A stretch of 64,000 bases of DNA from Oligoflexia bacterium (GTDB lineage: Bacteria > Bdellovibrionota > UBA1018): positions 471,587-535,586 of the forward strand of contig CAVWVI010000004.1 in the NCBI GenBank assembly GCA_963758495.1, given 5' to 3'. Shown here one piece after another: positions 53,093 through 55,096 of the stretch. Under the pieces are notes generated by a model. The model had not been told where the DNA came from. It was given only the letters and a program-made list of their open reading frames with translations, and did no database searches. Position 1 is the first letter of the stretch; every line of letters starts with the position of its first letter. The translations under genes and the position numbers were made by a program.

Positions 53093-53829
53093 GTTAAATT
53101 TGTTATAAATGTGTCGTGGATCGGCACACCCAGTTCCCTACTCAATACTCGATGACGAGGTATTGTCAAAATAAAATACCATGACGCAACGAACTACTGT
53201 CGAATGTTAGAATATTAGCCCACATTCCAAAAGAGGATACGCTTGCGCGTGCTACTTACTCTGCAAATCGCTTTCAAAAAAGTAAGAAATATTTTTTAAA
53301 CTATATAAGTGTTATACGTATTTTAGAAAATATTATCAATTTCAATATAATATATTTACATAATAAATAACTATTATGCAGAACTTAAGTTTAAATTATA
53401 GTAAACCACTTTCCTTGGACTGAATCCGAACTTTCAATCTGGCTAACATCAAACGCGTGAACATTACTGATAAATCAGGATCATTGAAGTCCTTTTTTAG
53501 TTGATTCTTTTCTGAGTCCGAAAGGGACAGGAAGTAAGCTCGTATTCTTGATATCCTGAAGAAAGCATGCTCCCACTGACTGGTGGGGGTCTATCAAATC
53601 TTGCTCCTCACAACTTTTTTCCTCTTCCACTTCACTTCTCGATCGCTTGCGATCAACCGTATTGAAGGTATTAGGTATTGAGTATTGGATGGCGCTCCCT
53701 AATGCTAGGCTTTTTCGCGGGACCGTAATATCTATGGAGTCGTTCAAGACTGTTTTGAGCTCGTGTCGCCTAGAGATAGCCCAAACAATCACCGGTCCCA
53801 ACGGTCAATGTGCAATATTTAATATATCC

Positions 53830-53859
53830 TTGACATGTAACCTTTAGGTTACCTATAAT
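53830..53859 (+). promoter_or_regulatory. candidate sigma-70 promoter with embedded inverted-repeat operator upstream of the ArsR-family gene
   Basis: TTGACA (53830-53835), 18-bp spacer containing GTAACC-TTTA-GGTTAC (53837-53852), TATAAT (53854-53859); start codon only 7 nt downstream. Confidence 0.4.
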
Positions 53860-53865
53860 AACTAG

Positions 53866-54189
53866 GTGGACACCGATCTGGTTTTCAAAGCGCTAGCGGA
53901 TAAAGGCCGACGCACCTTACTGGACTCCCTGTGCGAGCAAAACGGCCAAAACCTGAACTCGCTCTGTGAGAACCTGTTCATGAGCCGGCAGGCTGTGATG
54001 AAGCATCTCAGGATTCTCGAAAAAGCGAACCTGATTGCTGTTCATCGCGAGGGGCGCGAGAAATTGCATTTTCTCAACCCCGTGCCGCTCCAGGAAACAT
54101 TCGGACGCTGGGTCGCCAAATACGAATGCAGACGGCTTACGGCGCTCGATCATTTAAAGACCTCTTTAGAGAAAGGAAAGTCAAAATGA
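53866..54189 (+). CDS. ArsR/SmtB-family transcriptional regulator
   Basis: Winged-HTH pattern LADKGRRTLLDSL...NLNSLCENLFMSRQAVMKHLRILEKANLI; GTG start. Confidence 0.8.
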   Translation: MDTDLVFKALADKGRRTLLDSLCEQNGQNLNSLCENLFMSRQAVMKHLRILEKANLIAVHREGREKLHFLNPVPLQETFGRWVAKYECRRLTALDHLKTSLEKGKSK

Positions 54190-54647
54190 GTAAACCCCAA
54201 TTCGTTTATACGACCTATATCCAAACCACGCCTGAAAAACTCTGGGAGGCGCTTACCAACGGTGAGTTCACGCGCCAATACTGGGGTGGTTACCGCATCG
54301 AGAGCGATTGGAAACTGGGATCATCGATTCAGTTTTACGGCCCAGATGGAGACTTAAGGCATTCGGATCACGTGATTAAAGCCGAAAAACCAAAGTTTTT
54401 GTCCTATACTTGGAAGCCCTTGCAAGAGGGTATGCCGGATGAGCCCGCATCAACCGTAAGCTTCGAGATAGAAAATATGGGTGCTTATGTGAAATTAACG
54501 ATCACCCATTTTAACTTCCCAGAAAATTCAAAGATGTTCCCAATGATCAGCGGAGGTTGGCCGCTTGTACTCAGCAGTCTCAAGAGCTTCTTGGAAAATA
54601 ATAAGCCAATGAATTGGAAAAAATGCACTGGAGGTAACGAAAAATGA
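54186..54647 (+). CDS. SRPBCC-superfamily protein (AHSA1/START-like)
   Basis: PEKLWEALTNGEFTRQYWGG pattern typical of AHSA1-type SRPBCC proteins; ATGA overlap with the ArsR gene. Confidence 0.7.
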   Translation: MSKPQFVYTTYIQTTPEKLWEALTNGEFTRQYWGGYRIESDWKLGSSIQFYGPDGDLRHSDHVIKAEKPKFLSYTWKPLQEGMPDEPASTVSFEIENMGAYVKLTITHFNFPENSKMFPMISGGWPLVLSSLKSFLENNKPMNWKKCTGGNEK

Positions 54648-55096
54648 GTTCTTTTAAAATTCTTCATGAAGTTGGAATCAAAGCATCGCCGAATTTCATC
54701 ACCGAGGCACTCACGGATACGAAAAAGCTTGCAGCGTGGTGGACATCTGACACTCGTGGAAGCGGCTCACAAGTTGGAGATGTTCTTGAGTTTTGGTTTG
54801 GCGATTTCTGTCAAAAGTTCGAGATCATTGACCTACAGCCCGGAAAGCTCGTGAAATGGAAAGCGACTCAAAAAGAGAGCATGGATGAATGGGCGGGAAC
54901 AGAAATCACATTTAAACTGAGCCCAGAGAAAGACCAATGCTGGCTTAATTTCAGTCATTCGGGCTGGAAGAGCGACGAGGGAATGCTTCCTCACTGCTCA
55001 ACCAAATGGGCTGTGTTTATGCTGAGCCTGAAAGATCTTCTGGAAAAAGGAAAGGGACATCCGGCGCCGAATGACATCGAAATCAACCACGACTGA
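54644..55096 (+). CDS. SRPBCC-superfamily protein, second paralogue
   Basis: PNFITEALTDTKKLAAWWTSD pattern; ATGA overlap with the upstream gene. Confidence 0.65.
   Translation: MSSFKILHEVGIKASPNFITEALTDTKKLAAWWTSDTRGSGSQVGDVLEFWFGDFCQKFEIIDLQPGKLVKWKATQKESMDEWAGTEITFKLSPEKDQCWLNFSHSGWKSDEGMLPHCSTKWAVFMLSLKDLLEKGKGHPAPNDIEINHD

What the first reader, a model, noticed from the sequence alone, without database searches (positions are those of the whole stretch)
53093..55096. GC-richer ArsR-SRPBCC-SRPBCC cassette behind a 770-bp AT-rich non-coding stretch, with an inverted repeat inside its promoter
53093..53860 is extremely AT-rich and has no convincing ORF. It is followed by a three-gene coupled cassette (ArsR-family regulator and two SRPBCC proteins) whose coding sequence looks clearly GC-richer than its surroundings, suggesting horizontal acquisition. 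A consensus TTGACA-18-TATAAT promoter holds the inverted repeat GTAACC-TTTA-GGTTAC in its spacer, the layout expected for autorepression. The -10 ends 7 nt before the GTG start, implying a leaderless or very short-leader transcript, or a promoter mis-call.
Basis: partly seen in the sequence, partly recalled or inferred. Interest (0 to 1): 0.45.

Follow-up and report, generated by a model that had tools for sequence, protein, structure and literature searches.

The report
Self-repressed mobile ArsR–SRPBCC operon
This is a small three-gene unit (a repressor plus two proteins of a small-molecule-binding fold) that was imported from another bacterium and is very probably shut off by its own repressor at a DNA palindrome inside its promoter. 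It is a typical member of an already described, very widespread module, so it is real but ordinary.

Summary
The cassette is real: arsR (53866-54189, GTG start), AHSA1/SRPBCC #1 (54186-54647) and AHSA1/SRPBCC #2 (54644-55096), joined by ATGA overlaps.

The compositional step is real. Cassette GC is 47.4% against 41.6% for the window. GC3 is 0.64/0.52/0.50 against 0.365±0.045 for the window's genes.

The "770-bp extremely AT-rich" claim is only partly right. Only 53261-53400 (17% GC) is extreme; the rest of the spacer is average.

The promoter is the only perfect TTGACA-N16-18-TATAAT match in 64 kb. The promoter, the palindrome and the start-codon position are conserved in relatives, while the 6 nt before the start codon vary. 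This supports a leaderless mRNA.

Homology to relatives (91% nt identity) starts just upstream of the -35 and stops at the last stop codon. The flanks are unrelated, and hosts range from 41 to 53% GC while the cassette stays at about 47-48%. This supports horizontal transfer as a unit.

Across 84 distinct related loci from many phyla, 83 carry the same operator type. Recognition-helix residues 43, 45 and 46 covary with operator bases.

This is the known ArsR–COG3832 (Aha1) module, as in M. tuberculosis Rv2034-Rv2036. The signal and the SRPBCC function remain unknown. In-frame ArsR–SRPBCC fusions in Streptomyces hint that the two proteins work together.

The parts
53093..53260 (.). Non-coding spacer of ordinary composition (41.1% GC), upstream of the divergent secreted-protein gene 52592-53092(-)
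53261..53400 (.). 140-nt AT-rich core (17.1% GC), the lowest-GC segment of the 64-kb window. Its role is unknown; it is not part of the transferred module
   Evidence: no Rfam hit
53401..53815 (.). Non-coding spacer of average GC (~42%). Its 106-aa minus-strand ORF (53481-53801) has no Pfam hit and no true homologue
53816..55096 (+). The transferred module as delimited by homology: promoter plus three genes. It is 91.3% nt identical to L001/L002, with homology ending at the last stop codon
   Evidence: downstream alignment; upstream alignment
53816..53829 (+). AT-rich stretch just upstream of the -35 (AATATTTAATATAT), shared with L001/L002 only. Possibly an UP-like element (inferred)
53830..53835 (+). 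-35 hexamer TTGACA
   Evidence: invariant in alignment A1
53837..53852 (+). Operator palindrome GTAACC-TTTA-GGTTAC filling the 18-nt spacer (about -29 to -14 if the TSS is 53866)
   Evidence: analogy to the Rv2034 footprint
53854..53859 (+). -10 hexamer TATAAT
53866..54189 (+). arsR: 107-aa ArsR/SmtB-family winged-helix repressor without the classical metal sites. GTG start, predicted to be leaderless (predicted TSS = G53866)
54186..54647 (+). SRPBCC #1 (AHSA1/COG3832, 153 aa). This is the near-universal partner of this ArsR subfamily. Its start overlaps the arsR stop (ATGA) and is preceded by GAAAGGAAAG
54644..55096 (+). SRPBCC #2 (AHSA1, 150 aa), an optional second paralogue. ATGA overlap with gene 2, preceded by GGAGG. 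Closest solved structure is 2m89 'Aha1 domain protein' (E 2e-37)
55162..55265 (+). Long imperfect hairpin (26-nt arms, TGAAAC repeats) in the 207-nt spacer after the cassette. Possible terminator or host-specific element; not conserved in relatives

Best explanation
The locus is a horizontally acquired copy of the widespread ArsR–COG3832 (Aha1/AHSA1, SRPBCC fold) module. It sits in a variable thyA-folA interval of a Bdellovibrionota genome.

Proposed mechanism:
- A consensus sigma-70 promoter starts transcription at or within a base or two of G53866. The mRNA is therefore leaderless and begins with the GUG of arsR.
- The two SRPBCC genes are translated by coupling (ATGA overlaps, each with its own Shine-Dalgarno sequence).
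- A dimer of the ArsR protein binds the palindrome GTAACC-N4-GGTTAC, which fills the spacer between -35 and -10, and so blocks RNA polymerase. This is negative autoregulation of the whole operon.
- Recognition-helix residues 43, 45 and 46 (A, M and K here) read operator half-site positions 4, 2 and 5.
- The repressor lacks the classical metal sites, so the inducer is probably not a metal(loid).
- The SRPBCC proteins most likely bind a hydrophobic or electrophilic small molecule (stress or xenobiotic response). SRPBCC #1 probably acts together with the repressor.

Shown here: gene content, composition step, module boundaries, promoter and operator conservation, protein-DNA covariation, and the fusions.

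Inferred: the TSS, repression in vivo, the inducer, and the biochemical role of the SRPBCC proteins.
For: - Domains.
- Composition.
- Module boundaries and unrelated flanks.
- Promoter and operator conserved while the -10-to-start spacer varies, with ATG replacing GTG in L005.
- The perfect promoter and perfect palindrome are each unique in the window.
- Family-wide survey: at least 592 genomes across phyla. 85 of 88 loci have AHSA1 directly after arsR. 83 of 84 distinct upstream regions carry G[CT]A[AG]-N8-[CT]T[AG]C. The modal distance from operator end to start codon is 11-14 nt.
- Covariation by half-site: K46 goes with C5 in 98/98; Q46 with G5 in 104/116; M45 with T2 in 11/12 against T/S/A45 with C2 in 201/202; S43 with G4 in 15/16.
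- ArsR stop and SRPBCC1 start overlap in most of the 78 loci measured: 54 overlap by 4-17 nt, and 6 more are in-frame fusions.
- In-frame ArsR–SRPBCC1 fusions in all six Streptomyces loci.
- No CXC or His-rich metal motif in the sequence or in the family alignment. Makarova et al. report the same for this subfamily: PMC2701414.
- Experimental precedent: Rv2034 autorepresses the Rv2034-36 operon through CCGTAAGT-N4-ACTTACGG, footprinted from -30 to +3 of the start codon (PMC3338718). The window ArsR is homologous to Rv2034 (32% identity over 72 aa, E 3e-11).
- Leaderless mRNAs are enriched among regulators, including an arsR: PMC7563307.
Against: - No transcript, binding or phenotype data exist for this locus or for its close relatives.
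- GUG is a poor leaderless start codon in E. coli, and its use in Bdellovibrionota is untested.
- The 18-nt spacer is one base longer than the optimum.
- The covariation counts rest on few independent evolutionary events, since the clades are related.
- The donor and the mechanism of transfer are unknown. No repeats, integrase or attC flank the module.
- The functional link to small-molecule stress is weak. Downstream neighbours are mostly further SRPBCC copies, with only occasional DUF899, GFA, GST or glyoxalase genes.
Confidence: 0.72

Rival explanations
1. It is a type II toxin-antitoxin system: the SRPBCC/COG3832 protein is the toxin and ArsR is the DNA-binding, autorepressing antitoxin.
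For: - ArsR–COG3832 was picked up by TA-discovery screens because of its two-gene architecture, patchy distribution and lineage-specific expansions (PMC2701414).
- Rv2035-Rv2034 is listed among unclassified M. tuberculosis TA pairs (PMC3968373).
- Here the module is mobile, tightly coupled and autoregulated by the first gene.
Against: - Makarova et al. themselves concluded it is more likely a stress or antibiotic-resistance module than a bona fide TA.
- The S. maltophilia COG3832 protein was not toxic in E. coli or in its own host (PMC7650669).
- The pair is fused into one polypeptide in six Streptomyces genomes.
- Extra SRPBCC copies without extra ArsR are common.
- It is biased to chromosomes rather than plasmids.
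Confidence: 0.07
2. It is a classical metal(loid)-sensing ArsR/SmtB repressor controlling a metal-resistance function.
For: Pfam HTH_5 and NCBIfam 'metalloregulator ArsR/SmtB' models match, the latter only just (55.9 against a cut-off of 55).
Against: - There is no CXC motif in helix 3 and no Asp/His/Glu cluster in the C-terminal helix. The only family-invariant Cys is C34.
- No arsenate reductase, efflux pump or P-type ATPase lies nearby.
- The literature states that the COG3832-linked subfamily lacks the metal motifs.
Confidence: 0.03
3. The cassette is native. Its higher GC merely reflects amino-acid constraints on highly conserved proteins, so there was no horizontal transfer.
For: The ArsR protein is unusually conserved (57-95% identity across phyla). 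Overall GC rises by only 6 points.
Against: - The excess is largest at third codon positions (GC3 z +3 to +6).
- Nucleotide identity of 91% to contigs of 51-53% GC stops exactly at the module edges.
- The genomic neighbourhoods differ.
- A relative with 89% identical ThyA has other genes between thyA and folA.
Confidence: 0.05
4. The consensus promoter is not the functional one. Transcription starts further upstream, for example in the AT-rich core at 53322-53351, and arsR is translated from a leadered mRNA.
For: - Promoter-like matches (10/12) exist at 53322-53351.
- GUG is a weak leaderless start.
- Gene callers extended the ORF upstream in two relatives, to 114 and 132 aa.
Against: - Sequence upstream of the -35 is not conserved between relatives, whereas the promoter is.
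- No Shine-Dalgarno sequence precedes the start in any relative.
- The same geometry recurs in dozens of phylogenetically distant loci.
Confidence: 0.08

Closest known systems
M. tuberculosis Rv2034-Rv2035-Rv2036 operon (Gao et al. 2012, PMC3338718)
   Same: - An ArsR-family repressor without classical metal sites is followed by an overlapping SRPBCC/AHSA1 gene in one operon.
- The repressor binds a palindrome in its own promoter with 6-8-nt arms, a 4-nt centre and the same outer GTAA...TTAC. That palindrome is CCGTAAGT-CTAA-ACTTACGG, against GTAACC-TTTA-GGTTAC here.
- The Rv2034 footprint lies from -30 to +3 of the start codon. The window palindrome occupies about the same stretch before its start codon (-29 to -14).
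- The proteins are homologous (E 3e-11).
   Different: - Identity is only 32% over 72 residues.
- The inner operator bases differ.
- By my recollection the third gene of the Mtb operon is not an SRPBCC protein, whereas here it is a second AHSA1 paralogue.
- Rv2034 also regulates phoP and dosR. No other operator copy was found in this window.
ArsR–COG3832 (Aha1) 'TAS-like mobile two-gene module' (Makarova, Wolf & Koonin 2009, PMC2701414)
   Same: - The architecture is exactly the same: ArsR without metal motifs plus a COG3832 protein.
- It forms a unique pairing, has a patchy and expanded distribution, is mostly chromosomal, and is inferred to be mobile and stress-related.
   Different: That work did not describe the promoter and operator design, the leaderless start, or the recognition-helix/operator covariation found here. 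The window copy carries a second SRPBCC gene.
Classical ArsR/SmtB metalloregulators (R773 ArsR, SmtB, CadC, CzrA)
   Same: Winged-helix fold. Dimeric repressors that bind an imperfect palindrome overlapping their own promoter and autoregulate their operons.
   Different: The window protein has no alpha-3 CXC and no alpha-5 metal site. Its cargo is SRPBCC proteins, not pumps or reductases.
Bacterial AHSA1/SRPBCC proteins of known or suggested function: CalC (calicheamicin self-resistance) and B. subtilis YndB (binds chalcone/flavonoid-like ligands)
   Same: Same Pfam family (PF08327) and helix-grip fold, with a hydrophobic-ligand-binding role.
   Different: No close sequence relationship was shown here. 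The best PDB matches are structural-genomics proteins of unknown function (2leq, 2m89).

Membership tests
ArsR/SmtB family of winged-helix repressors | Match to the family HTH models above the curated cut-off | tested here: met
   Pfam HTH_5: 32.1 bits against cut-off 22. NCBIfam NF033788: 55.9 against 55. PDB ArsR-family hits 7r22, 2oqg, 3f6v and 3f6o.
Metal(loid)-sensing ArsR/SmtB | Metal-binding residues: alpha-3 CXC, alpha-3N, or an alpha-5 Asp/His/Glu cluster | tested here: not met
   The sequence has no CXC. The C-terminal helix has a single His. The only family-invariant Cys is C34. Consistent with PMC2701414.
ArsR–COG3832 (Aha1) module | ArsR gene immediately followed, on the same strand, by a COG3832/AHSA1 gene as a unit | tested here: met
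   ATGA overlap in the window. AHSA1 E 4.9e-19. 85 of 88 related loci share the arrangement. The genes overlap in most of the 78 loci measured.
ArsR–COG3832 (Aha1) module | Patchy, mobile distribution in unrelated genomic contexts | tested here: met
Rv2034-type autorepressor | Repressor binds a palindrome in its own promoter and represses it | not testable with these tools
   Supported indirectly by conservation in 83/84 loci and by protein-DNA covariation. Needs EMSA or a footprint plus a reporter assay.
Rv2034-type autorepressor | Sequence homology to Rv2034 | tested here: met
   BLASTP: 32% identity over 72 aa, E 3e-11. The Rv2034 sequence was verified by exact look-up. This is a distant relative, not an orthologue.
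Leaderless mRNA | Transcription start at, or within a few nt of, the start codon | not testable with these tools
   Predicted from the -10 ending 6 nt before the GTG, the absence of a Shine-Dalgarno sequence, the in-frame stop directly upstream, and conserved geometry.
Type II toxin-antitoxin system | Toxin arrests growth and the cognate antitoxin neutralises it | not testable with these tools
   The literature test of a homologous pair was negative (PMC7650669). The fusions in Streptomyces argue against this reading.
SRPBCC / Bet v 1-like superfamily, AHSA1 family | Match to PF08327 above the cut-off over the full domain | tested here: met
   69.2 and 38.2 bits against cut-off 22.1, covering profile positions 2-125 of 125. 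PDB relatives 2leq and 2m89.
Integrase-bounded genomic island | Flanking direct repeats (att) and a recombinase gene | tested here: not met
   No repeat flanks the cassette. The recombinase-like C-terminal motif I saw by eye at 52308-52526 gives no Pfam hit. The thyA 3' duplication (55692-55845 / 57366-57520) brackets a different 1.5-kb segment.

The most novel reading that the evidence does not exclude
SRPBCC #1 is not cargo but the signal-sensing half of a split one-component regulator. It binds a hydrophobic ligand and then contacts the ArsR dimer to release it from the operator, or to hold it there, much as START-fold PYR/PYL receptors control their partner proteins.

This would explain four observations:
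- The pair is syntenic in at least 85 of 88 loci across phyla.
- The two genes are translationally coupled.
- The regulator has lost all metal sites.
- The two proteins are fused in frame in all six Streptomyces loci examined, which include two operator-specificity classes.

If true, the leaderless promoter-operator design and the three-residue recognition code would make this family a ready-made set of orthogonal small-molecule switches.
Probability: 0.3. Interest if true: 0.55.

Novelty: new member of a known kind. Interest (0 to 1): 0.27.

Why it matters
For this genome it matters little. It is one more copy of a common accessory module, and it marks the thyA-folA interval as a landing zone for foreign DNA.

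The family-wide by-products are more useful:
- A promoter with the operator in its spacer and a leaderless start is conserved from Bdellovibrionota to Streptomyces.
- A clean three-position recognition code links the helix to the operator: residue 43 to base 4, residue 45 to base 2, and residue 46 to base 5.
- Natural ArsR–SRPBCC fusions exist.

Together these turn the long-open question of what the ArsR–COG3832 pair does into concrete experiments. They also explain why gene callers miss or mis-start these arsR genes.

Tried and rejected
- Exact look-up of the ArsR protein found nothing. The public gene call for this sequence has an antisense 78-aa ORF instead. The look-up therefore says nothing about how rare the protein is.
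- An Rfam scan of 52900-55400 at E≤1 found nothing.
- The 106-aa ORF in the spacer has no Pfam hit. Its single weak hit is to a repetitive 1557-aa protein. I rejected it as a gene.
- The 'integrase C-terminal remnant' I saw by eye at 52308-52526 is not supported by Pfam. I dropped it as evidence.
- A search for a third thyA-3'/att copy that might bound an island around the cassette found only chance 9-14-mers.
- A plasmid search found only megaplasmids and chromids at ≤63% identity, so it gives no evidence for plasmid carriage of this clade.
- A tally of downstream neighbours, meant to infer function, gave mostly further SRPBCC copies. DUF899, GFA, GST and glyoxalase genes appear only sporadically, which is weak evidence.
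- I considered predicting an ArsR–SRPBCC complex. The structure tool takes single chains and only window or database sequences, so this was not attempted.
- Other operator-like sites in the window (2 mismatches) lie inside genes and look like chance matches.
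Full report
**1. What is in the sequence**

- The window is 41.6% GC.
- Between 53866 and 55096 lie three co-directional ORFs.
  - The first is a 107-aa ArsR-family protein: Pfam HTH_5 at 32.1 bits against a cut-off of 22, and NCBIfam NF033788 at 55.9 against 55.
  - The second is a 153-aa AHSA1 protein and the third a 150-aa AHSA1 protein (PF08327; E 4.9e-19 and 2e-09).
- Both junctions are ATGA overlaps (54186-54189 and 54644-54647).
- Genes 2 and 3 each have a Shine-Dalgarno-like sequence (GAAAGGAAAG and GGAGG). 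arsR has none.
- The two SRPBCC proteins are divergent paralogues.

**2. Checking the observation**

- The promoter is as described: TTGACA at 53830-35, an 18-nt spacer and TATAAT at 53854-59.
  - It is the only perfect TTGACA-N16-18-TATAAT match in 64 kb, against 0.04 expected.
- The palindrome GTAACC-TTTA-GGTTAC (53837-53852) is unique at 0 mismatches.
- The GTG at 53866 is preceded directly by an in-frame TAG. The next in-frame ATG/GTG/TTG is Met39, inside the HTH.
  - Residues F7-L10 are family-invariant, so translation must begin at or next to this GTG.
- The compositional step is real.
  - The cassette is 47.4% GC, in the top 0.16% of same-size windows.
  - Third-position GC is 0.64, 0.52 and 0.50, against 0.365±0.045 for 55 window ORFs. 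That gives z of +6.0, +3.5 and +3.0.
- The "770-bp extremely AT-rich" description is only partly right.
  - The spacer is 37.5% GC overall, the 6.6th percentile.
  - Only 53261-53400 is extreme: 17.1% GC, the lowest 140-nt segment of the window.
  - The rest is 41-42% GC.
- The spacer does look non-coding.
  - Its longest ORF (106 aa, minus strand) has no Pfam hit.
  - Its only hit among 1.84 billion representatives is a low-complexity match.
  - There is no Rfam match.

**3. Close relatives define a discrete module**

- The ArsR protein has thousands of homologues. The closest are 95%, 90% and 87% identical.
- Their contigs carry the same genes at the same lengths. ArsR-AHSA1-AHSA1 occurs in L001-L004 and ArsR-AHSA1 in L005-L008.
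- The neighbourhoods are unrelated.
  - L001/L002: DUF1801 and a GST, with a serine recombinase a few genes upstream.
  - L003/L004: glyoxalases and a second ArsR-AHSA1-AHSA1 set.
  - L005-L008: housekeeping genes.
- Nucleotide homology to the window is 91.3% for L001/L002, spanning 53816-55096.
- It is 85.5% for L003/L004, spanning 53829-55097.
- It is 80.5% for L005-L008, spanning 53829-54634.
- So homology starts at the -35, or 14 nt before it, and ends at the stop codon of the last shared gene.
- The cassette keeps 46.8-48.1% GC in these four hosts, while the rest of each contig is 41.5% (window), 46.9%, 51.3% or 53.0% GC. It is GC-rich here and GC-poor in L001 and L003.
- Together with the GC3 result, this shows transfer as a unit rather than vertical descent.

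**4. Host and local context**

- The window's PNPase is 100% identical to a protein on a 1.1-Mb contig. Its named relatives are Bdellovibrionia, Oligoflexia and Bdellovibrionales MAGs.
- The cassette lies between thyA (58200→57366, minus strand) and folA/DHFR (48504→47986). These are 8.9 kb apart.
- That interval holds several signs of mobile or decayed DNA.
  - A second, decayed copy of the thyA 3' end at about 55905-55693, 75-87% identical to the first.
  - An SLT transglycosylase and a DUF4160 gene lying between the two thyA ends.
  - An ImmA/IrrE (Peptidase_M78) reading frame with no start codon upstream of the internal Met at 51866, at 51456-52330.
  - An AAA_14/DUF4143 ATPase.
- Two relatives show that the interval varies.
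  - L090 (ThyA about 90% identical) has the same thyA-SLT-161aa-thyA' arrangement.
  - L091 (89%) has thyA and folA only 3 kb apart, with different genes between them.
- The interval is therefore variable and accretes foreign DNA.
- I could not define island ends around the cassette itself.

**5. Promoter, operator and leaderless start are conserved**

- In the alignment of the window with L001, L003 and L005, several elements are invariant or nearly so: the -35, both palindrome arms, the -10, and the codons from the start onward.
- In the same alignment, the 4-nt centre of the palindrome varies. So do the 6 nt between the -10 and the start (AACTAG, AAGCGT, GGGTGG, GAATAC).
- L005 has ATG exactly where the window has GTG.
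- Sequence upstream of the -35 is unrelated.
- This is what a leaderless mRNA with an operator in the promoter spacer would produce. A mis-called promoter would not give this pattern.

**6. Family-wide survey**

- A scan of one genome per species found at least 592 genomes with a relative.
- Phyla represented include Proteobacteria, Actinobacteria, Acidobacteria, Verrucomicrobia, Planctomycetes, Chloroflexi, Gemmatimonadota and Bdellovibrionota.
- In 85 of 88 loci an SRPBCC #1-type gene follows arsR directly. A second or third SRPBCC is optional.
- The arsR stop and the SRPBCC #1 start overlap in most of the 78 loci measured: 54 overlap by 4-17 nt, and 6 more are in-frame fusions.
- 77 of 84 distinct upstream regions contain G[CT]AA-N8-TT[AG]C. 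With one more degenerate position on each arm, 83 of 84 do. Chance expectation is below 0.01 per region.
- The modal distance from the operator end to the first in-frame start codon is 11-14 nt. That leaves room only for the -10 and 5-7 nt more.
- Many Q46-type loci carry two tandem operators.

**7. Protein-DNA covariation**

- Recognition-helix residues track operator half-site bases.

| Residue (window numbering) | Operator half-site base | Count |
|---|---|---|
| K46 | C at position 5 (GCAAC/GTAAC) | 98/98 |
| Q46 | G at position 5 | 104/116 |
| M45 (window clade and one alphaproteobacterial MAG) | T at position 2 | 11/12 |
| T/S/A45 | C at position 2 | 201/202 |
| S43 | G at position 4 | 15/16 |
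| A/G43 | A at position 4 | 194/198 |

- The clades are related, so these counts reflect few independent events.
- Even so, the pattern is what is expected if each palindrome is the cognate operator of the ArsR encoded just downstream.

**8. Comparison with what is known**

- Makarova, Wolf and Koonin described ArsR–COG3832 (Aha1) as a TAS-like, patchily distributed, mostly chromosomal two-gene module.
  - They noted that its ArsR lacks metal motifs.
  - They judged it more likely a stress or antibiotic-resistance unit than a true TA system (PMC2701414).
- The window ArsR likewise has no CXC motif and no His-rich helix-5 site.
- In M. tuberculosis, Rv2034 autorepresses the overlapping Rv2034-Rv2036 operon.
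  - It binds CCGTAAGT-N4-ACTTACGG, footprinted from -30 to +3 of the start codon (PMC3338718).
  - The geometry (6-4-6, outer GTAA...TTAC) and the position match the window.
  - The proteins are homologous but distant: 32% identity, E 3e-11. The Rv2034 sequence was recalled from memory and verified by exact look-up.
- The S. maltophilia COG3832 protein was not toxic in kill-rescue assays (PMC7650669).
- Leaderless mRNAs are known to be enriched among regulators, including an arsR (PMC7563307).
- Solved structures related to the two SRPBCC proteins are structural-genomics entries of unknown function (2leq, 2m89).

**9. Mechanism and what remains inferred**

- Shown here: module identity, composition, boundaries, conservation, covariation and coupling.
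- Inferred: TSS at about 53866, repression by occlusion of the spacer (-29 to -14), a non-metal inducer, and ligand binding by the SRPBCC proteins.
- One new observation bears on function. In all six Streptomyces loci, arsR and SRPBCC #1 form a single in-frame ORF of about 265 aa.
  - These loci fall into two operator-specificity classes.
  - This Rosetta-stone pattern argues for a physical partnership between the two proteins and against a toxin-antitoxin relationship.
- Downstream neighbours elsewhere are mostly extra SRPBCC copies. DUF899, GFA, GST and glyoxalase genes appear only occasionally. That gives weak support for a small-molecule or electrophile stress role.

**10. Verdict**

- The object is a new member of a known, very common module, so interest is low to moderate.
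- The most novel reading still open is that SRPBCC #1 is the ligand-sensing partner of the repressor.

Noticed in passing
window 57366-58200 (-) and 55693-55905 (-): thyA carries two frameshifts relative to intact relatives, near 57600 (in a T-run) and near 57455 (one extra base). A second, decayed copy of its last ~70 codons lies 1.67 kb downstream. The two copies bracket an SLT transglycosylase, a 161-aa ORF and a DUF4160 gene. The relative L090 has the same arrangement with an intact thyA.
   Followed up: partly
window 47986-58200: thyA and folA (DHFR, 47986-48504) are 8.9 kb apart here but 3 kb apart, with different intervening genes, in relative L091. The interval looks like a hot spot for foreign DNA.
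   Followed up: partly
window 53917-54153 (-) / L089 6148-6384: In the public assembly of this same sequence, the gene caller did not call arsR. It called a 78-aa antisense ORF instead. In two relatives arsR was over-extended upstream across its own promoter, to 114 and 132 aa. This is probably a consequence of the leaderless, Shine-Dalgarno-less start.
   Followed up: yes
L032, L048, L066, L068, L077, L085 (about 3001-3800 in each): In all six Streptomyces loci, ArsR and the AHSA1 protein are one in-frame ORF of about 265 aa. These are natural fusions.
   Followed up: partly
Related loci such as L013, L024, L027, L029, L065 (upstream 70 nt): Loci whose ArsR has Gln at position 46 often carry two tandem operators (GCAAG-N6-CTTGC) about 26-27 nt apart, plus a short N-terminal extension of the protein.
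   Followed up: no
window 58398-58448: A perfect 51-nt palindrome (25-nt arms, 1-nt centre) lies in the divergent spacer between thyA and a Fic-domain gene (58453-59688), ending 4 nt before the Fic start codon.
   Followed up: no
window 55162-55265: A long imperfect hairpin built from TGAAAC/GTTTCA repeats. The surrounding 207-nt spacer folds with z = -3.5 against shuffles. It is not conserved downstream of the cassette in relatives.
   Followed up: partly
window 51456-52330 (-): An ImmA/IrrE-type Peptidase_M78 reading frame (HEXXH present, E 7e-15) with no usable start codon upstream of an internal Met. It is probably a truncated remnant of a mobile-element gene.
   Followed up: partly
window 53261-53400: The lowest-GC 140-nt segment of the whole window (17% GC). 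It lies in the spacer between a secreted-protein gene and the cassette. Its function is unknown, and promoter-like matches fall inside it.
   Followed up: partly
window 63260-63670 (+): A GtrA-family membrane-protein gene is a second GC3 outlier (0.515, z +3.3). It may be another acquired gene.
   Followed up: no
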